DNA from: Gammaproteobacteria bacterium
GTDB taxonomy: Bacteria; Pseudomonadota; Gammaproteobacteria; Poriferisulfidales; GCA-002705445
Length of the DNA stretch: 64,000 bases
Direction of reading: 5' to 3'
Assembly: GCA_018675635.1 (NCBI GenBank)
Contig: JABGXU010000008.1
Location: 195,588-259,587, forward strand
The position numbers and the translations under genes were made by a program. The notes beneath the pieces are model-generated. The model was not told where the DNA came from. It made no database searches and saw only the letters and a list, made by a program, of their open reading frames with translations. Within the stretch, counting starts at the first letter, position 1. Every line of letters starts with the position of its first letter. Of the stretch, positions 12,943 to 19,276 are shown one piece after another.

Positions 12943-13541
12943 TGATAAGAAAAGATTTTAAAATAATATCTGATTGGATAAAAAAAGATTCAACTGTTTT
13001 AGATTTAGGTTGTGGTGATTCAACCTTGCTTGAATATTTAAAAATAAATAAAAATATTTCTGGTTATGGATTTGAAAAAGATATTAATAAGGTTCAAGAG
13101 TCTATAAAAAAAAATATTAATGTAATACAAGCAGATTTTAATGTTGGTTTGGCAAAATATTTTAATAGTAACTTTTTTGATTACGCAGTTATGACTCAAG
13201 CACTTCAAGAAAACAAGAACCCAAATCATATAATTTTAGAAATGTTAAGGGTTGCAAGAGAAGGTATTGTAACTTTCCCCAATATGGGATTTTGGAAAAA
13301 CAGGTTTCAACTTGGTTTTCTTGGACGTATGCCAGTATCAAATTCATTGCCAAATAATTGGTTTGATACCCCAAATATTCATTTGTGTACTTTTAATGAT
13401 TTTGAAAAACTTTGTGGAGATTTAGAAATTATTATTTTAGATAAGAAAGTTTTAAATAATAATTATTCCACTAATTTTCTACTTAAAATATTTCCTAATT
13501 TTTTTGGGGAAATAGCTTTATATCGTTTTAAGAAAGATTAA
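12942..13541 (+). CDS. metW: methionine biosynthesis protein MetW
   Basis: 199 aa; VLDLGCGDSTLLEYL SAM-MTase-like N-terminus; ATGA overlap with metX. Confidence 0.9.
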   Translation: MIRKDFKIISDWIKKDSTVLDLGCGDSTLLEYLKINKNISGYGFEKDINKVQESIKKNINVIQADFNVGLAKYFNSNFFDYAVMTQALQENKNPNHIILEMLRVAREGIVTFPNMGFWKNRFQLGFLGRMPVSNSLPNNWFDTPNIHLCTFNDFEKLCGDLEIIILDKKVLNNNYSTNFLLKIFPNFFGEIALYRFKKD

Positions 13542-13973
13542 TTATTTTGTTTTAATTTTTGCCTTAATAAAATCAGTATGACTTAAATGCAGTAATTCTG
13601 ATATTTTTCTAATTCTGTGTTCTTCATGTTTATCAATAATATTATCAACTCTTGCTATTTTCCAAGCCATATTAAGTATTGTTTTTTTCTGTGTATTAGT
13701 AAATTTATCGTTAATTAATTTAATGTACTTTCTAAGACAATTAATGTTCTTATGTAATTCTTGTGCTTCAGCAGTTACCCATTTAGCTTTTTCTTTGTCT
13801 AAATTATATTCTTTTTCAATTAGATTGACTATAGATCTAATTTCAATTTCACTAATTTTAAAGTCAGCATAGCTAACTTCTATTAAAATTATTGCACAAG
13901 CGATGTTAATATCACTTATTGGATCAATATTCTCTGGTGCTTTTTTAAATATTTTTTTTATTAGATTTAGCAT
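13542..13973 (-). CDS. TerB-like (tellurite resistance TerB family / DjlA-N-like) protein
   Basis: 143-aa all-helical protein with acidic/aromatic repeats typical of the TerB fold. Weak, composition- and pattern-based. Confidence 0.4.
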   Translation of the reverse strand: MLNLIKKIFKKAPENIDPISDINIACAIILIEVSYADFKISEIEIRSIVNLIEKEYNLDKEKAKWVTAEAQELHKNINCLRKYIKLINDKFTNTQKKTILNMAWKIARVDNIIDKHEEHRIRKISELLHLSHTDFIKAKIKTK

Positions 13974-14082
13974 AATTTATGATATTTTATCATTAATAGA
14001 ATATATAATTTTAATTTTTTCAATATCATTGATAATTTCATTATTAAGATATAAAGTAACATAAAATAATTTTTGATAAATT

Positions 14083-14481
14083 ATGACTAATTATACGGAT
14101 AAAGAATTTATGTACATAACAGAAACTGTTATGAGGATTTTAGATACTTGGAACCTTACAACCCAGCAAATGGTTTTAGTTATAGGACTTCCAACTCAAA
14201 CTAAGAAAAGACAGCTAGATAAATTCAGATCTCTAAAAGCTTTTCCAAAGGATGATCTAATTATAAAAAGGCTAAGTCATATAGTAGGAATATCTGATGC
14301 ACTACGAACTTCATTTCCAAGAAATGAAAATATGTCAGAAAAATGGTTAAAAACACAACATAGGAGATTTGATAATGAGACCCCTTTGTCTGTTATATTG
14401 GAGCAAGGGGTGGATGGACTATGTAAAGTAAGATCTGAATTAGATTGCACTTTTGCATGGGATACATCTGTACAAATTTAA
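14083..14481 (+). CDS. Xre/MbcA/ParS-like antitoxin-domain (DUF2384-like) protein
   Basis: The C-terminus WLKTQHRRFDNETPLSVILEQGVDGLCKVRSEL fits the W..(n)..P..L(L/I)..G...V..L pattern of the DUF2384 toxin-binding domain. The N-terminal region LTTQQMVLVIGLPTQTKKRQLDKF is HTH-like. Confidence 0.5.
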   Translation: MTNYTDKEFMYITETVMRILDTWNLTTQQMVLVIGLPTQTKKRQLDKFRSLKAFPKDDLIIKRLSHIVGISDALRTSFPRNENMSEKWLKTQHRRFDNETPLSVILEQGVDGLCKVRSELDCTFAWDTSVQI

Positions 14482-14493
14482 TCAATTAATATT

Positions 14494-15006
14494 ATGAAAA
14501 AACTTTACACAATAAAAAATTCAAAATTACATGGAAAAGGGTTATTTGCTAATTGCAACATAAAAGCCGAAACAAATATTGTTGAGTACGTTGGTGAAAA
14601 AATAACAAAAGCACAATCAGAGAAAATATCTGATATACAACTAAAAAAATCTCAAAAAAATAAAGATGAAGGGCAAGTATATATTTTCACATTAAATAAT
14701 AAATATGATATTAACGGCAATGTAAATTATAACAAAGCTAGATTAATGAATCATTCATGTAATTCTAATTGTGATACCGATATAATTGATAATAAAATTT
14801 GGATAAGATCGTATAAAGATATTAAGAAAGGTGAAGAATTGACATATGATTATGGTTTTACTTTTGATAAAGATGATTTTAGAGATCACATTTGTAAATG
14901 TGGGTCAAGAAAATGTGTAGGATTTATTGTAACTGAAACAGACTGGAAAAAGCTAAGAAAGTTTCTGTTAAAGCTAGCTAAAAATTGTTTAAAAACTAAC
15001 GAATAA
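14494..15006 (+). CDS. SET-domain protein-lysine N-methyltransferase
   Basis: GKGLFA (GxG), RLMNHSCNSNC (NHSC), ELTYDYGF (catalytic Tyr) and post-SET CKCGSRKC. Lies 12 bp downstream of the preceding ORF. Confidence 0.85.
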   Translation: MKKLYTIKNSKLHGKGLFANCNIKAETNIVEYVGEKITKAQSEKISDIQLKKSQKNKDEGQVYIFTLNNKYDINGNVNYNKARLMNHSCNSNCDTDIIDNKIWIRSYKDIKKGEELTYDYGFTFDKDDFRDHICKCGSRKCVGFIVTETDWKKLRKFLLKLAKNCLKTNE

Positions 15007-15655
15007 ATTTTTTTGAAAAGCAAGAAACGTTATTTATTGAAGTATAATTTTCTACTATTTGTTTTTCTTTTTTTGAATCCGGATAATTTATCGAGATAAG
15101 ATTTTTAATACCATTTTTTTCAGCAAATTTTAAAACATTTTCATTATCATCAATAAAGAATGTTTTTTCTTTATTATAAATTATATTTTTATTTAATATA
15201 TTCCAAAAATTTTCCGTCTCTTTGGCATACCCATAATCATGAGATGAAATTATTTTATTAAAATACCCCCATAATTTAGACTGTGTAATTTTAATATTTA
15301 GCATTTCTCTTGGGCAATTAGTTATTAGAACTGTATTAATCTGATTTTTTTTTAGAGTTTTAAGGAATTCTATTGTGTTAGGAAGCACTGAAATTTTGTC
15401 TTTGGTATTTAATATTTCTGATTTTAAATTAATGTTCAAAATATTACTCCAGTAATTTATGCTGTACCATTCAATAGTACTTTTTTTCTCCATATACATG
15501 CCTTCAAGTATTATTTTTGCTTCTGCAAATGTTGTTTTTTCTATTTTAGAATATAAATTTGGAATATGCTCATGCCAAAAATAGTTGTCATATGCTAGAT
15601 CAAGTAATGTTCCATCCATATCTAAAAAAAACGTTTCTATTACGCCCCATTTCAT
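14996..15655 (-). CDS. HAD-superfamily hydrolase (YrfG-like nucleotidase family)
   Basis: FLDMDGTLLDL motif I (DxDGT) near the N-terminus; 219 aa. Confidence 0.7.
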   Translation of the reverse strand: MKWGVIETFFLDMDGTLLDLAYDNYFWHEHIPNLYSKIEKTTFAEAKIILEGMYMEKKSTIEWYSINYWSNILNINLKSEILNTKDKISVLPNTIEFLKTLKKNQINTVLITNCPREMLNIKITQSKLWGYFNKIISSHDYGYAKETENFWNILNKNIIYNKEKTFFIDDNENVLKFAEKNGIKNLISINYPDSKKEKQIVENYTSINNVSCFSKKFIR

Positions 15656-15692
15656 CTACTCTATTCCTACATTAGTTATTTATTTGATATAT

Positions 15693-16877
15693 ATGATAAC
15701 AGAAAAAAAATATACAGCTTTGGTAAACCTATTATTACAGGTACTGTTTGTTGGTATTTTGCTTGGGTTATTTAGAACTGCTATTCCAGCATTATCAGAA
15801 AGTGTTTTTTTAGTCCCTAAAAATTCATTTATATTTTTATCTACTTTTATTATTGCTTTTGGGATCATTAAGGGAATTGCTAATTATTATGCTGGTGTTT
15901 TTGCTGATAAATATAATAGAAAAACTGTTCTATTATTAGGTTGGTTAGTAGCATTTCCAGTTCCTTTTATAATTTATTTTGCTACAAATTGGTATTACAT
16001 AATTTTAGCCACATTTATTATTGGCATTAATCAAGGGCTAACCTGGTCAGTGACACAAATTTCAAGTGTAGATATTACAAAAAATGAGAATAGAGGATTT
16101 ATTGTTGGGTTAAATGAATTTTCTGGATATTTTGGTGTTGCTATTGGAGGTATTTTAGTTAGTTATATGACATCTTTACTTACAGTAAAAATAGCTTTAT
16201 TTCTTTTTAGTATAATATTTATTTTAATAGCTACTTTATATTGTATATTTTTGGTTAAAGAAACAAAAAGCTATGCAAACATAGCATTTGGTAAAAATCC
16301 AAAAAACGTTTTTTTATATGTAACATGGACAAATAAAAAATTATTTGCTTATTCTCAGGCAGGACACATTGAAAAATTTGTTGATACTTGTATATGGATC
16401 TTCTTCCCTGTTTATTTGTTTAATAACGGTGTAACTTTAATTGAAATTAGTTACATAGTTGGTACATATACTTTTACTTGGGGGATTTTTCAAATTTTCA
16501 CGGGTTTGTATTCTGATTATGTGGGAAGAAACTTATTAATTATATCAGGAATGTTAATTTGTTCTATTGTACTTCCATTATGTTTATTAAGTCTTGAATT
16601 TAGTTGGTGGATGACGTGTAGTTTTTTTCTTGGTTTGGGTATGGCTCTTTTATATCCGTCAATAAGCTCTGCTGTTAATGATAATTGTGATGATAGTTGG
16701 AGAGCTTCTGCAATTGGTATATATAGATTTTGGAGGGATACCGGTTATGCTACAGGAGCATTAGGATTAGGCATAGTAACAAGTTTAGTAAACATTGAGG
16801 CTGGCTTTATTTTTGTTTCTTTCAGCATGATATTGTCAACTTTAATTTTAATTTTTACTTTAAAAAAATATAGTTAG
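15693..16877 (+). CDS. MFS transporter
   Basis: About 12 TM segments. Start moved to ATG 15693 (MITEKK) to avoid a long overlap with the convergent HAD gene. Motif ADKYNRK between TM2 and TM3. Confidence 0.7.
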   Translation: MITEKKYTALVNLLLQVLFVGILLGLFRTAIPALSESVFLVPKNSFIFLSTFIIAFGIIKGIANYYAGVFADKYNRKTVLLLGWLVAFPVPFIIYFATNWYYIILATFIIGINQGLTWSVTQISSVDITKNENRGFIVGLNEFSGYFGVAIGGILVSYMTSLLTVKIALFLFSIIFILIATLYCIFLVKETKSYANIAFGKNPKNVFLYVTWTNKKLFAYSQAGHIEKFVDTCIWIFFPVYLFNNGVTLIEISYIVGTYTFTWGIFQIFTGLYSDYVGRNLLIISGMLICSIVLPLCLLSLEFSWWMTCSFFLGLGMALLYPSISSAVNDNCDDSWRASAIGIYRFWRDTGYATGALGLGIVTSLVNIEAGFIFVSFSMILSTLILIFTLKKYS

Positions 16878-16940
16878 TATATTAAATAAAAATGTTTTTG
16901 GTGAAACGATAGGAATTTGTAGTTAAGAATACTATGTATT

Positions 16941-18449
16941 CTATTTCACAAGTGGAGGAACCATACCATGGTGAAATATGTATGCTACACCGTAAGCTAT
17001 TGGAGCTATAACTACAAATAAACCAATAGCATATAGAAATGCAAGTTTACCCATGCCTTTTAATTTACTGAAATCAGTTATTACTCCGATGCTAACGAAA
17101 GTAAGCATAAACATCATTTTTCTCATAGGGCTTTGAACAACATTAGCTCCAACTGACGCAGCATCTTTTACATCTGGCGCTAAAATAATAATTAATAAAT
17201 AAAAAAACCAGGTTATAAAATAACCAATCACAAATTTTGGAAAGCGAAACCAAATTTCTGATAAAGGCACATTACTTCCAACCGACCTTTTTTCAACTTT
17301 GTACATCCATATTAAAGCCAATATAAACGCCCAAACACCAATAAAGACATCTATCCATATTTTAGTTAATACGGCAGCAGCAAGTATCCAATCCTCTTGC
17401 CATTGTTCTCCTGTTTCTTTTAGATGTTGGCTAACCATTATTTCATCTAATATTGCTCCTGCAGCCGCATCTGCGCCATCTGTTTTAACAGTCATGCCCA
17501 TAGCAGCACCATTTACTATTGGCTCATTAGGTGCAACAGCTGCATAAAAACCTGGCAATACCACTAATTCAAGCATTGCAAATATTACTATTAACATCGA
17601 AAGGGCTATAGGCAAAATGGGTTTTGCACGAATTGCGCCAGCTGTTGCAATTGCTGCAGAAACTCCACATATTGAAATACCAGATGACAGAACTGCTGCG
17701 GCGTCTCGACTAAGCTTAAATAATCTTCGCGATATAAAATATATAATTGGCCAAAATAAAAGATATGCTACAAAAACTGCGGCTGCACCAGTTAGAGCTA
17801 GATCTATTGCAAAACCTGTTGCTCTCATAGACATTAAGCCAAGCTTTATTCCAAGATAAACAATTGCTGTTTTAATAAACCATTCTGGTTTTGCTGATTC
17901 TCGTAAAAACTTTGCCAAATTTTTAAAAAAATTTCCTATTATTAATCCAATAGCTAAAGCTAGCATATAAGAAAAACCACCACCCAATTGTAACCCCCAT
18001 GTTAAATTATATTTTTCAAAATAATTTTTTCCTTTTACAATGGCATCAACAGATTTGAAGTGTGCTTCATGACCTACAATCCAGCATAGCCATGTAATAA
18101 AAAATATAATGGTGAACCCAAAAAAGAATTTTTTTACATCAAGTTTTTGAAAGTAAGCACCAATGCATGTAATAAATGTAAAAATAAAATAAGTGAAAAA
18201 TAATGAAACTAGAGGATGTAATTGCGCATAGTATTTTGTAGATGGTTTAAGCAACTTTGCCCATGAAAAATTAGACATAAGATCAGTCCATTCCCAAGTT
18301 TTTACTTTTGTCATCCATCCTACTAGGTCAATATCCCAGATAGTAAAAAGTCCTGCAAAAAACATTATTAAACCTAACCAGACTGCCCACCAGTCTTCTG
18401 TTCGCAGCATGCCATCTGACCATTTTCTATTAATATTTTCCATATTCAT
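16941..18449 (-). CDS. YeiH/UPF0324-family putative transporter with ~150-aa N-terminal membrane extension
   Basis: 502-aa polytopic membrane protein. LSSGISICGVSAAIATAGAI resembles the conserved GSSICGASA motif of the YeiH putative sulfate exporter family. Confidence 0.5.
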   Translation of the reverse strand: MNMENINRKWSDGMLRTEDWWAVWLGLIMFFAGLFTIWDIDLVGWMTKVKTWEWTDLMSNFSWAKLLKPSTKYYAQLHPLVSLFFTYFIFTFITCIGAYFQKLDVKKFFFGFTIIFFITWLCWIVGHEAHFKSVDAIVKGKNYFEKYNLTWGLQLGGGFSYMLALAIGLIIGNFFKNLAKFLRESAKPEWFIKTAIVYLGIKLGLMSMRATGFAIDLALTGAAAVFVAYLLFWPIIYFISRRLFKLSRDAAAVLSSGISICGVSAAIATAGAIRAKPILPIALSMLIVIFAMLELVVLPGFYAAVAPNEPIVNGAAMGMTVKTDGADAAAGAILDEIMVSQHLKETGEQWQEDWILAAAVLTKIWIDVFIGVWAFILALIWMYKVEKRSVGSNVPLSEIWFRFPKFVIGYFITWFFYLLIIILAPDVKDAASVGANVVQSPMRKMMFMLTFVSIGVITDFSKLKGMGKLAFLYAIGLFVVIAPIAYGVAYIFHHGMVPPLVK

Positions 18450-18712
18450 ATATCAAAAATTAATATTCTGTTGAAATAGTGTGAATGATATTGATGAAGC
18501 CACTTCGGGAATGTGGAAAAATCATAAACCATATTAACTTTTATTTTTTTTCCTTTTTCTTTTATTAGTAAATTAGTTAGCGTTATTTTAATTTTATCAT
18601 CTAGATCAGTAATCTCTTTTGCTTTCAATTTCAAGAAATTATTTTTCGCAAACCAATAATTATTATTATGGCTAATTTGTAATTCTGTATTTATTACTAG
18701 TATTGTCTTCAT
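18446..18712 (-). CDS. hypothetical 88-aa protein, translationally coupled (ATGA) on both sides
   Basis: ORF start overlaps the stop of the upstream 54-aa ORF. Its stop overlaps the ATG of the YeiH-like gene. Confidence 0.45.
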   Translation of the reverse strand: MKTILVINTELQISHNNNYWFAKNNFLKLKAKEITDLDDKIKITLTNLLIKEKGKKIKVNMVYDFSTFPKWLHQYHSHYFNRILIFDI

Positions 18713-18873
18713 AATACTAACAAGTTTATTAAAATACCGAGAATAATTAAACCAATAATGGCAATTAGGATACTATAGATTACTAGTTTTGATTCCCAGC
18801 TTTCCCATGGTTCTGGGTTACTTAGTAATTCTTGCGCAGACTCTAATTCAATAGATTTTACTTTATCTTTCAT
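18709..18873 (-). CDS. unannotated 54-aa single-TM peptide (MKDKVKSIELESAQELLSNPEPWESWESKLVIYSILIAIIGLIILGILINLLVL)
   Basis: Translated by hand from the - strand. GAGG lies 9 nt upstream of the ATG. The stop TGA overlaps the ATG of the 88-aa ORF. It is below the ORF-track length cutoff. Confidence 0.5.
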   Translation of the reverse strand: MKDKVKSIELESAQELLSNPEPWESWESKLVIYSILIAIIGLIILGILINLLVL

Positions 18874-19012
18874 TTTTAAAAACCTCATAAAGTACTTTAT
18901 ATAATATATGGAAAAATTTGCTAAATTAACAAATTTTTCTTATAGAGTAGTTTAATATGAATAGCATAAAAGTTAGATATGCTAAAGATTTTTTTTAATA
19001 GAATATTATAAA

Positions 19013-19088
19013 TGGTGGCTCGGGGCAGAATTGAACTGCCGACACGAGGATTTTCAGTCCACTGCTCTACCAACTGAGCTACCAAGCC
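19013..19088 (-). tRNA. tRNA-Phe (GAA)
   Basis: Reverse complement reads GGCTTGGTAGCTCAGTTGGTAGAGCAGTGGACTGAAAATCC...TTCAATTCTGCCCCGAGCCACCA. It has a 7-bp acceptor stem, a GAA anticodon in a CTGAAAA loop, a T-loop GTTCAATTC and an encoded CCA. Confidence 0.95.
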
Positions 19089-19276
19089 GTTATTCATTTA
19101 TAATTCATTATGAAAAAAGTGAGTATACACTAATGTATTAATAGATGAAGTTATGTTTTTAATGATAAATTTTTTTATATTTTTTCATCAATATGAAATA
19201 TATTAGATATTCATTATATTCGAATAATGGTATTTATTATAAATATTCAGTGAGTTTTTTTTATTTCTAAATTAAT

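What the first reader, a model, noticed from the sequence alone, without database searches (positions are those of the whole stretch)
14083..15006. DUF2384 (Xre/ParS/MbcA antitoxin-like) ORF paired with a SET-domain lysine methyltransferase
The 132-aa ORF ends with a segment (WLKTQHRRFDNETPLSVILEQGVDGLCKVRSEL) that follows the conserved pattern of the DUF2384 toxin-binding domain of Xre-type antitoxins. Twelve bp downstream and co-oriented is a 170-aa ORF with a textbook SET domain (GxG, NHSC, ELxxDY, post-SET CxCx4C). DUF2384 partners are normally RES or MbcT NAD+-targeting toxins. A SET methyltransferase in the toxin slot is not an arrangement I recognise. This is a candidate toxin-antitoxin-like or tightly regulated methyltransferase module. 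It is flanked by a TerB-like gene and lies in the tRNA-Phe-proximal accessory stretch.
Basis: partly seen in the sequence, partly recalled or inferred. Interest (0 to 1): 0.75.

Follow-up and report, generated by a model that had tools for sequence, protein, structure and literature searches.

The report
Toxin-less antitoxin-like gene beside SET methyltransferase
A gene shaped like a toxin-antitoxin "antitoxin" does sit 12 bases upstream of a genuine SET-domain protein lysine methyltransferase, but comparison with about 180 related loci suggests a neighbourhood formed once in one group of small-genome marine bacteria, not a toxin-antitoxin module.

Summary
ORF1 (14083-14481) passes the Pfam threshold for the Xre/MbcA/ParS C-terminal domain. 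Its AlphaFold model matches only RES-family antitoxins in the PDB, with NatR the best match. ORF2 (14494-15006) is a complete SET plus post-SET methyltransferase.

The toxin-antitoxin reading is not supported.
- ORF1 belongs to a vertically inherited, RES-less branch of the antitoxin family. This branch is found in more than 170 loci of Thiotrichales/Chromatiales-like Gammaproteobacteria.
- Its neighbours vary between lineages: a 95-aa helical-hairpin protein, a 108-aa protein, a Cys-rich 150-aa protein, a CxxCxxCC protein and a FliB-like lysine methylase.
- SET follows ORF1 in only one monophyletic clade (16 loci). There it occupies the slot that holds a CxxCxxCC gene in sister lineages, inside a conserved metX-metW-TerB...HAD housekeeping block.
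- SET homologues outside the clade, in SAR11 and on Burkholderiaceae, Xanthomonas and Variovorax plasmids, have no DUF2384 neighbour.
- Both genes are under purifying selection, share one conserved promoter-like site and have host-like composition.

Most likely this is a co-transcribed, clade-specific pair of a solo NatR-like regulator and an endogenous protein methyltransferase. One lead remains: this DUF2384 branch lies next to two unrelated lysine-methylase families (SET and FliB-like).

The parts
14029..14057 (+). Promoter-like site TTGATA-17 nt-TAAAGT upstream of ORF1. The conserved core is ATTGATAAT ... ATATAAAGTAA.
   Evidence: Found by the consensus scan, although the scan as a whole does not exceed chance. 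The same two blocks are the best-conserved columns in an alignment of the 140 nt upstream of ORF1 in 12 clade members. Function is inferred.
14083..14481 (+). ORF1, 132 aa: a solo NatR/Xre-like protein. It has an N-terminal HTH-like region (about residues 14-50, nt 14122-14232) and a C-terminal DUF2384 domain (residues 78-121, nt 14314-14445).
   Evidence: PF09722 at 27.9 bits, above the gathering score of 24.5. AF2 model at pLDDT 88. Foldseek PDB: NatR 8qnl_B with TM 0.74/0.85, then MbcA, VPA0769 and Xre-RES. 24-27 invariant columns across the family. dN/dS 0.04-0.2.
14482..14493 (.). 12-nt spacer between ORF1 and SET. No terminator-like site.
   Evidence: Sequence. The terminator scan found 0 sites in 13400-15800. 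For the eight clade members whose SET start the script identified, the ORF1-SET distance is -4 to +9 nt, against +12 in the window. It was not determined for L015, L019, L020, L022 and L025.
14494..15006 (+). SET-domain protein lysine methyltransferase, 170 aa. SET domain residues 14-121 (nt 14533-14856). GxG at 14530-14547, NHSC at 14749-14760, EELTYDY at 14833-14853 and post-SET CxCx4C at 14893-14916. Lys-rich C-terminal tail.
   Evidence: PF00856 at 82.9 bits. Residue-by-residue alignment to KMT2D 4z4p and MLL1 7w67 including post-SET. dN/dS 0.02-0.2 in the clade. GC 25%, GC3 17%, like the host.
13542..13973 (-). TerB-family gene, divergent from ORF1. It marks the upstream border of the conserved slot.
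   Evidence: PF05099 at 4.6e-24. Same position in all clade members and in sister lineages.
14996..15655 (-). HAD-family GMP/IMP nucleotidase-like gene, convergent with SET and overlapping its 3' end by 11 nt. It marks the downstream border of the slot.
   Evidence: NF011564 at 171.6 bits, just under its cutoff of 189; HAD_2 and Hydrolase Pfam hits. Same position after SET in the clade and after the CxxCxxCC gene in sister lineages.

Best explanation
ORF1 and the SET gene form a two-gene transcription unit specific to one clade. It is not a toxin-antitoxin system.

ORF1 is the orthologue of a 'solo' branch of the Xre/NatR/MbcA antitoxin fold (HTH plus DUF2384 domain). This branch has lost the RES toxin. 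It is inherited vertically as a single-copy chromosomal gene across Thiotrichales/Chromatiales-like Gammaproteobacteria.

In the sister lineages of the window's clade the same slot, between TerB(-YccV) and the HAD nucleotidase near metXW, reads [95-aa helical-hairpin protein][DUF2384 protein][CxxCxxCC protein]. In the ancestor of the window's clade (AT-rich marine bacteria with roughly 1.1-Mb genomes) the small upstream gene was lost from this position. A SET-domain gene took the place of the CxxCxxCC gene.

The SET protein is a catalytically complete lysine methyltransferase, closest to the stand-alone SET proteins of SAR11. It presumably methylates one or more endogenous proteins.

Shown: domain and fold identities, catalytic motifs, synteny, single origin of the adjacency, purifying selection, and the lack of any RES, toxin or defence signature.

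Inferred: (1) ORF1 acts as a DNA-binding regulator from the conserved promoter upstream of it; (2) SET is therefore expressed under ORF1's promoter by read-through across the 12-nt spacer; (3) the SET substrate is a cellular protein, for example a nucleoid-associated or translation protein.
For: (1) Family and fold of ORF1.

(2) SET is complete.

(3) Census of 80 GTDB species carrying the ORF1 family. SET is downstream in only 11, all with metX-metW-TerB|ORF1-SET|HAD-MFS. 48 have the 95-aa gene directly upstream, often with a 4-nt overlap. 24 have CxxCxxCC downstream followed by the same HAD gene. 8 have an unrelated 108-aa gene upstream.

(4) Census of 80 metagenome loci from the deeper branch. 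No SET is found. A Cys-rich ~150-aa protein (C27) is the steady neighbour, and a FliB-like gene is present in 22.

(5) In an NJ tree the SET clade is monophyletic and nested inside the s95>DUF>CxxC branch, which points to one replacement event.

(6) The nearest SET homologues outside the clade (55-58% identity, Pelagibacterales-type context Wzy_C-SET-rhodanese) have no DUF2384 neighbour. Four plasmid SETs at 26-34% identity also have none.

(7) Canonical pairing is detectable with the same method. A distant relative, P0350 (profile E 4e-15), has a PF08808 RES gene 24 nt downstream. Closer relatives P0259 and P0260 (E ~1e-25) are again solo.

(8) The residues of the DUF2384 domain stay invariant whatever the neighbour. 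This suggests that the conserved surface serves something common to all lineages, not SET.

(9) Host-like GC and GC3, dN/dS at most 0.2 for both genes, no PADLOC hit.

(10) Conserved promoter-like blocks upstream of ORF1, no terminator, and a spacer of -4 to +12 nt where the SET start could be placed (window plus eight clade loci).
Against: The order (antitoxin-fold gene first, enzyme second) and the very short, sometimes overlapping spacer are what a TA operon looks like. This layout has been kept through synonymous-site saturation. However, the whole block has been kept too, and intergenic spacers are short throughout this streamlined genome.

In another branch the same DUF2384 subfamily lies next to a second, unrelated lysine methylase: FliB family, NF038110, 191.7 bits, in 6 GTDB and 22 metagenome loci. 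In the sister branch it lies next to a PF03692 CxxCxxCC protein, the Pfam domain that FliB also carries. Two or three independent links to lysine-methylase-type genes are unlikely by chance, so a functional tie cannot be excluded.

No experiment or complex prediction was possible. DNA binding by ORF1 is inferred from the fold only, and no conserved operator palindrome was identified. Only 64 kb of the genome is available, so a RES, s95 or C27 gene elsewhere in the genome cannot be excluded.
Confidence: 0.6

Rival explanations
1. Functional methyltransferase-control module. The DUF2384 protein binds the SET enzyme through the surface that its relatives use for RES toxins. It then acts as inhibitor, specificity factor, substrate or SET-responsive repressor. 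More generally, this solo DUF2384 branch would work with protein lysine methylases (SET here, FliB-like and perhaps CxxCxxCC proteins elsewhere).
For: Antitoxin fold over the full length. The pair is kept with a -4 to +12 nt spacer, where the SET start could be placed, and is present in all 16 clade loci seen, with no decoupled case. A FliB-family lysine-N-methylase lies directly upstream of the orthologous gene in 28 loci of another branch. A PF03692 protein sits in the SET slot in 24 sister loci. My rough post hoc estimate: if lysine methylases are about 0.1-0.2% of genes and about a dozen distinct neighbour families were seen, two hits have p of about 1e-3 to 1e-4.
Against: Each association is one evolutionary event confined to one branch. 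FliB is facultative within its own synteny: L106, L108 and L122-L145 lack it. It lies 86-470 nt away. The short CxxCxxCC protein shows no profile similarity to FliB beyond the Cys motif (hhalign probability 1%) and is not a known methylase. SET homologues in SAR11 and on plasmids manage without a partner. More than 150 loci of the DUF2384 branch have no methylase nearby. The domain's invariant residues do not change with the neighbour.
Confidence: 0.22
2. Type II toxin-antitoxin or defence module in which SET is a toxin, neutralised by ORF1. The toxic activity would be methylation of an essential protein such as EF-Tu, a ribosomal protein or HU.
For: Gene order, spacing and the antitoxin fold. 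Distant relatives of ORF1 are true RES antitoxins.
Against: The pair is inherited vertically and is syntenic, in a housekeeping block, in every clade member. There is no patchiness or mobility, and composition is host-like. The nearest SET homologues are solitary in the very small SAR11-type genomes. The ORF1 branch is already toxin-less in its relatives. No PADLOC model matches. To my knowledge no SET-domain toxin has been described, and a literature search found none paired with DUF2384.
Confidence: 0.05
3. Pure juxtaposition with no shared regulation. SET has its own promoter inside the 3' end of ORF1, and the two products have nothing to do with each other.
For: The genome is streamlined and most neighbours are packed this tightly: metX/metW overlap, metW/TerB abut, and SET/HAD overlap by 11 nt. 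Promoter-like sites occur inside ORF1 (for example 14347-14376), at chance frequency in this AT-rich DNA.
Against: The only promoter-like blocks conserved across the clade lie upstream of ORF1. There is no terminator-like site. One species has a 4-nt ATGA overlap and another a 1-nt spacer.
Confidence: 0.1

Closest known systems
NatR-NatT, Xre-RES, MbcA-MbcT and ParS-ParT (type II TA systems with an Xre-HTH/DUF2384 antitoxin and a RES-family NAD+-targeting toxin)
   Same: ORF1 has the same two-part fold, with best PDB match NatR 8qnl_B at TM 0.74/0.85. It passes the Pfam PF09722 threshold. It is the upstream gene of a tightly spaced pair. Distant sequence relatives of the ORF1 profile are bona fide RES partners.
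   Different: There is no RES gene; the downstream gene is a SET methyltransferase. ORF1 scores 25 bits against a 90-bit cutoff for NCBIfam Xre_ParS_antitoxin. The subfamily is chromosomal, syntenic and vertically inherited, with changing non-toxin neighbours. No sequence-level match to any solved antitoxin.
Stand-alone bacterial and archaeal SET-domain lysine methyltransferases (Chlamydia cpnSET/NUE, Burkholderia BtSET, Bacillus BaSET, Methanosarcina Go1-SET; reviewed in PMC3980110) and the eukaryotic KMT2/MLL-Set1 SET plus post-SET module
   Same: Same size class (about 160-170 aa, SET plus post-SET only). All catalytic and SAM-binding motifs and the post-SET Zn cysteines are present. The best solved matches are the KMT2D and MLL1 SET domains. 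Go1-SET methylates a chromatin protein of its own cell (PMC3980110), which is the kind of endogenous role proposed here.
   Different: No substrate is known. The host is a free-living, streamlined marine gammaproteobacterium, not a pathogen. It is only 26-34% identical to the annotated Burkholderiaceae and Xanthomonas SET proteins. The upstream DUF2384 gene is peculiar to this clade.
FliB flagellin lysine-N-methylase (NCBIfam NF038110) and YkgJ-type CxxCxxCC proteins (PF03692)
   Same: These occupy positions next to the orthologous DUF2384 gene in other lineages. FliB is, like SET, a protein lysine methylase.
   Different: They are unrelated in sequence and fold class to SET. Neither is present in the window. 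The short CxxCxxCC protein has no demonstrated methylase activity and no profile similarity to FliB beyond the Cys motif.

Membership tests
Xre/MbcA/ParS/NatR-type antitoxins (Pfam PF09722 + PF20432) | C-terminal DUF2384 (Xre_MbcA_ParS_C) domain above the Pfam gathering score | tested here: met
   27.9 bits against a gathering score of 24.5, E 2.3e-6, residues 78-121.
Xre/MbcA/ParS/NatR-type antitoxins (Pfam PF09722 + PF20432) | N-terminal Xre-like HTH and the overall two-domain fold | tested here: met
   Weak by sequence: PF20432 at 13.4 bits against a gathering score of 25.8. The AF2 model (pLDDT 88) aligns over 120 columns to NatR with TM 0.74/0.85. The top 11 PDB hits are all RES-family antitoxins.
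Xre/MbcA/ParS/NatR-type antitoxins (Pfam PF09722 + PF20432) | Curated NCBIfam subfamily model NF049845 (type II RES/Xre antitoxin) or TIGR02293 | tested here: not met
   25.3 bits against a cutoff of 90; TIGR02293 at 12.8 against 57.
Type II RES-Xre toxin-antitoxin system | Cognate RES/MbcT/ParT/NatT toxin gene adjacent (normally directly downstream) | tested here: not met
   The downstream gene is SET. None of the recurrent neighbours scanned against Pfam or NCBIfam in about 180 family loci is RES. The two aminotransferase-like clusters were read by eye only. A positive control, distant relative P0350, does have PF08808 RES downstream. The rest of the genome could not be searched.
Type II RES-Xre toxin-antitoxin system | Patchy, mobile or strain-variable distribution typical of TA loci | tested here: not met
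   Same syntenic slot in all clade members and sister lineages. Host-like GC and GC3. The gene tree follows the neighbourhood types.
Type II RES-Xre toxin-antitoxin system | Toxicity of the downstream product, neutralised by direct binding of the upstream product | not testable with these tools
   Needs expression and interaction experiments or a complex prediction. The structure tool returns monomers only.
SET-domain protein lysine methyltransferases (PF00856) | SET domain above the Pfam threshold | tested here: met
   82.9 bits against a gathering score of 22.4, covering profile positions 1-105 of 105.
SET-domain protein lysine methyltransferases (PF00856) | SAM-binding GxG, the NHSC motif and the catalytic Tyr in ELxYDY | tested here: met
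   HGKGLF 13-18, NHSC 86-89 and EELTYDY 114-120, aligned column by column with KMT2D and MLL1.
SET-domain protein lysine methyltransferases (PF00856) | Post-SET Zn-binding cysteines (CxCx4C plus the Cys of NHSC) | tested here: met
   CKCGSRKC 134-141 aligns with CHCGAWNC of KMT2D and CNCGAKKC of MLL1.
SET-domain protein lysine methyltransferases (PF00856) | Lysine methyltransferase activity on a defined substrate | not testable with these tools
   Needs a biochemical assay.
Known anti-phage defence systems (PADLOC-DB 2.0) | Match of either protein to a defence-system model | tested here: not met
   No hit at E <= 0.1 for ORF1, SET or TerB.

The most novel reading that the evidence does not exclude
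The RES-less, vertically inherited branch of the DUF2384 antitoxin fold has been re-used as a partner of protein lysine methyltransferases, acting as inhibitor, adaptor, substrate or methylation-sensing repressor. The ORF1-SET pair, the FliB-like-DUF2384 pair and perhaps the DUF2384-CxxCxxCC pair would then be interchangeable versions of one methylation-control module. This would be an antitoxin scaffold domesticated to gate a post-translational modification enzyme in abundant marine bacteria.
Probability: 0.18. Interest if true: 0.7.

Novelty: new variant of a known kind. Interest (0 to 1): 0.35.

Why it matters
If the ordinary reading holds, the value is mainly corrective in three ways.
- A DUF2384/Xre-type gene followed closely by an enzyme gene should not automatically be annotated as a toxin-antitoxin pair.
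- There is a sizeable 'solo' branch of this antitoxin fold that behaves like a core-genome regulator: 25 cluster representatives at E <= 1e-30 and 257 at E <= 1e-10.
- SET-domain lysine methyltransferases of unknown substrate are conserved, selected genes in very abundant streamlined marine bacteria, both this gammaproteobacterial clade and SAR11. This makes endogenous bacterial lysine methylation there worth studying.

If the minority reading holds, it would be a first case of an antitoxin scaffold re-used to control protein methyltransferases.

Tried and rejected
- **Solved antitoxins by sequence.** A profile search of the ORF1 family against PDB sequences found no antitoxin; the best hit was a spurious uronate isomerase at E 0.017. 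Only the fold comparison recovered the relationship.
- **A common ancestral partner.** I tested whether the alternative small partners (s95, alt108, C27) are homologous to one another, which would have implied one. hhalign probabilities were <= 0.3%, so this was rejected.
- **CxxCxxCC as a truncated FliB.** hhalign probability 1%, with only the Cys motif shared. The 'three methylase links' argument therefore rests on two.
- **Partner genes elsewhere in the window.** I searched the 64-kb window for s95, alt108, CxxC, C27, C32, C33 and FliB-like genes. There were no hits better than E 0.05. Whether they exist elsewhere in the genome could not be tested.
- **The 95-aa partner.** I used the last homologue search on it hoping to see whether the window's clade keeps a copy elsewhere. 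The family has 2729 clusters and only the top 120 are listed, so the question stays open. Its AF2 model is a two-helix hairpin with a disordered tail, too simple for a meaningful fold search, so I did not run one.
- **Operator search.** I looked for an operator palindrome upstream of ORF1. Many AT-rich imperfect inverted repeats turned up, but none is conserved across the clade.
- **RNA families.** Rfam found only tRNA-Phe in the window.
- **Complex prediction.** An ORF1:SET complex could not be predicted. The structure tool takes single chains of window or database proteins and returns no inter-chain confidence.
- **Recent horizontal transfer of SET.** Considered and rejected. Composition is host-like and the gene is fixed throughout the clade. 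An older transfer involving SAR11-type SET genes (55-58% identity) remains possible but was not tested phylogenetically.
Full report
**1. The observation**

ORF1 is 14083-14481 (+), 132 aa. ORF2 is 14494-15006 (+), 170 aa. A 12-nt spacer separates them.

ORF1 matches Pfam PF09722 (Xre/MbcA/ParS C-terminal toxin-binding domain) at 27.9 bits, above the gathering score of 24.5, over residues 78-121. The N-terminal Xre-like HTH model gives only a weak hit. NCBIfam's curated RES/Xre antitoxin model is far from met, at 25 bits against 90.

ORF2 matches the whole SET profile at 82.9 bits. Against solved structures it aligns best with the KMT2D and MLL1 SET plus post-SET modules. The GxG, NHSC and ELTYDY motifs and the CxCx4C post-SET cysteines are all in register.

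The flanks are a TerB-family gene (divergent) and a HAD nucleotidase-like gene (convergent, overlapping SET by 11 nt). metX-metW lies upstream and an MFS transporter downstream. tRNA-Phe is 4 kb away.

**2. ORF1 has an antitoxin fold**

An AlphaFold2 model built on 32 homologues is confident (pLDDT 88, pTM 0.83). In a Foldseek search of the PDB, the top eleven hits are all antitoxins of RES-family toxins:
- NatR (TM 0.74 normalised by the query, 0.85 by the target)
- MbcA
- VPA0769
- P. putida Xre

Nothing else is convincing. A profile search of PDB sequences had found none of these, so the relationship is remote.

An exhaustive profile search shows a compact core: 25 representatives at E <= 1e-30 and 257 at <= 1e-10. 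This core grades into the wider family, with 857 at <= 1e-3. One distant member, P0350 (E 4e-15), has a PF08808 RES gene 24 nt downstream. The family link to true TA antitoxins is therefore real, and the neighbourhood method does detect RES when it is there. Two closer members, P0259 and P0260 (E ~1e-25), are again solitary among housekeeping genes.

**3. What the relatives show**

Close homologues of ORF1 (68-99% identity) come from marine metagenomes and MAGs/SAGs with assemblies of about 1.1 Mb. All show metX-metW-TerB | ORF1-SET | HAD-MFS.

A scan of one genome per GTDB species with an ORF1-family alignment found 140 relatives, of which the best 80 were fetched. They are Thiotrichales/Chromatiales-like Gammaproteobacteria: marine 'Thiothrix sp.' MAGs, Porisulfidus, Cocleimonas, Leucothrix, Thiolinea and Thiohalophilus.

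The neighbour census of those 80 loci gave the following:

| Neighbour | Position | Loci |
|---|---|---|
| SET | downstream | 11 (only the window's clade) |
| ~95-aa protein without Pfam/NCBIfam match ('s95') | directly upstream, often with a 4-nt overlap | 48 |
| PF03692 CxxCxxCC protein, followed by the same HAD gene | downstream | 24 |
| unrelated 108-aa protein, plus a downstream HTH protein | upstream | 8 |
| FliB-family lysine-N-methylase (NF038110, 191.7 bits against 85) | upstream | 6 |

A second scan targeted the deeper branch in metagenomes (80 loci). It found no SET. A Cys-rich ~150-aa protein (C27) was the steadiest neighbour, convergent in most loci and co-oriented directly downstream in a subset. 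The FliB-like gene was upstream in 22 loci of one synteny type, but relatives with the same synteny lack it.

s95, the 108-aa protein and C27 are not detectably homologous to one another. s95 is predicted to be a two-helix hairpin with a disordered tail, not an enzyme. Some NCBI records call it 'segregation and condensation protein A'.

**4. Origin of the adjacency**

In an NJ tree of the DUF2384 proteins, the SET-linked sequences form one clade. It is nested within the branch whose loci read s95-DUF2384-CxxCxxCC. Several of those sister loci share the metXW...TerB-YccV...HAD frame.

The simplest history is a single event in the ancestor of the window's clade. The s95 and YccV genes were lost from the slot, and the CxxCxxCC gene was replaced by SET. 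No s95, CxxCxxCC, C27 or FliB-like gene is present anywhere in the 64-kb window.

On the SET side, the nearest homologues outside the clade are 55-58% identical. They sit in a Pelagibacterales-type context (Wzy_C-SET-rhodanese/PfkB) without any DUF2384 gene. SET homologues at 62-66% identity still show the window's arrangement. Four annotated plasmid-borne SET genes (Burkholderia, Xanthomonas, Variovorax, Caballeronia; 26-34% identity) also lack it.

So each gene family exists widely without the other.

**5. State of the pair in the clade**

Both genes are under purifying selection. dN is 0.08-0.21, dS is saturated, and dN/dS is at most about 0.2. Both have host-like composition: SET has GC 25% and GC3 17%, ORF1 32% and 21%, and the window 29%.

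Where the SET start could be placed, the ORF1-SET distance is -4 to +12 nt (the window plus eight clade loci; it was not determined for five others). No terminator-like site lies between the genes. The only blocks conserved in the upstream region across 12 clade members form a TTGATA-17-TATAAAGT promoter-like site at 14029-14057. Co-transcription is therefore likely, though it is inferred.

Neither protein matches a PADLOC defence model. The pair is not in a variable region. Relative to its relatives, the window diverges only from about 16.9 kb. There a 25-aa DUF2237 remnant is followed by a PF03601 gene and tRNA-Phe, instead of DUF2237 plus proteorhodopsin.

**6. Interpretation**

The TA reading requires a toxin that needs neutralising and, usually, a mobile and patchy locus. 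Five findings argue against it:
- The ORF1 branch is toxin-less wherever it was examined.
- The locus is vertically inherited in a housekeeping block.
- SET is solitary in SAR11-type genomes.
- The conserved residues of the DUF2384 domain do not change with the neighbour.
- No paper in the library holds both 'DUF2384' and 'SET domain', and to my knowledge no SET-domain toxin has been described. The papers I read describe DUF2384 as the antitoxin of RES and as an HTH fused to LK-nucleases (PMC3482391, PMC2848206).

My best explanation (0.6) is a clade-specific, co-transcribed pair. It consists of a solo NatR-like regulator and an endogenous lysine methyltransferase, created by gene replacement in a conserved slot.

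The main rival (0.22) is a real functional tie between this DUF2384 branch and lysine methylases. It is motivated by the unexpected second association with FliB-like methylases and by the PF03692 gene in the SET slot. That pattern was noticed post hoc. Each association is a single event, FliB is facultative, and the short CxxCxxCC protein shows no profile similarity to FliB.

A true TA or defence module gets 0.05. Unrelated genes with separate promoters get 0.1.

**7. Comparison with known systems and novelty**

ORF1 works like, and is folded like, NatR/Xre/MbcA. It is not a member of a RES TA system, because the defining toxin partner and the curated subfamily threshold are not met. ORF2 meets every testable criterion of a SET plus post-SET lysine methyltransferase.

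I did not find the arrangement DUF2384-SET described in the literature. The evidence makes it a lineage-specific variant, not a new kind of system.

Interest is moderate to low (0.35). The finding corrects an attractive but unsupported TA annotation. It defines a solo branch of an antitoxin fold. It also leaves one testable lead, the methylase association, together with the open question of what SET enzymes methylate in abundant streamlined marine bacteria.

Noticed in passing
L004 3653-3940 and 4001-4393; L033 4693-5004 and 5001-5402; 48 of 80 GTDB loci (L026-L094): A conserved two-gene unit. A ~95-aa protein (consensus KEQRILvvMRK.La.IvkDvTP...PLs..Ti.DIr.CFgLIsaRErE...RPry.DEP) lies immediately upstream of the DUF2384 gene, often with a 4-nt ATGA overlap. 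It has no Pfam or NCBIfam hit. The family has 2729 clusters, and some NCBI records name it 'segregation and condensation protein A', which looks like a misnomer. AF2 predicts a two-helix hairpin plus a disordered tail. It is absent from the window.
   Followed up: partly
L082 5590-6048 (-); L127 5430-5840 (+); about 60 of 80 loci L099-L178: An uncharacterised ~135-153-aa protein with four conserved Cys and a PLPH.KE.KVQ.GGLLGLQ motif (cluster C27). It is the steadiest neighbour of the DUF2384 gene in the deeper branch. It is convergent in most loci but co-oriented about 19 nt downstream (an antitoxin-then-toxin-like layout) in a subclade. No Pfam or NCBIfam hit, and the fold was not predicted.
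   Followed up: partly
L082 3485-4768; L099 3580-4914; 6 GTDB and 22 metagenome loci: A FliB-family flagellin lysine-N-methylase homologue (NF038110, 191.7 bits) sits directly upstream of the DUF2384 gene in a non-flagellar synteny (C42-C36-FliB-DUF2384). Its substrate there is unknown.
   Followed up: partly
window 16882-19100: Right after the MFS gene only a 25-aa remnant of the DUF2237 gene remains (16882-16956). Relatives carry DUF2237 followed by proteorhodopsin at this point. The window instead has a 502-aa PF03601 membrane protein (16941-18449, -), two small ORFs and tRNA-Phe (19013-19088, -). This looks like a strain-variable, tRNA-proximal replacement.
   Followed up: partly
L011 3001-3492; L013 1421-1912 and 2660-3148; L097 3001-3489: SAR11-type (Pelagibacterales) genomes carry a conserved ~163-aa SET gene just downstream of a Wzy_C (O-antigen ligase-like) gene. 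One contig (L013) has two SET copies about 750 nt apart.
   Followed up: no
L179 716-1036 and 2498-2935; L182 1873-2151 and 2486-2950: On Burkholderia savannae and Caballeronia zhejiangensis plasmids the SET gene lies next to a nucleoid-protein gene: H-NS about 1.5 kb upstream, and HU 335 nt upstream, respectively. This is an anecdotal hint that nucleoid-associated proteins may be bacterial SET substrates.
   Followed up: no
window 15585-16877: The longest MFS ORF starts at a TTG that overlaps the HAD gene by 71 nt and gives 430 aa. Orthologues are 394-398 aa, so the real start is probably about 100 nt further downstream.
   Followed up: no
L030 3241-3648; L043 3244-3651; L051 3250-3648: Some Porisulfidus-type genomes carry a second DUF2384-family paralogue about 1.4 kb upstream of the s95-DUF2384-CxxCxxCC unit.
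   Followed up: no
L012 2632-3125; L015 5411-5920: In two long-read-derived contigs the DUF2384 gene (L012) or the SET gene (L015) appears frameshifted. This is most likely an assembly error and not gene decay, because neighbouring genes in the same contigs are also split.
   Followed up: partly
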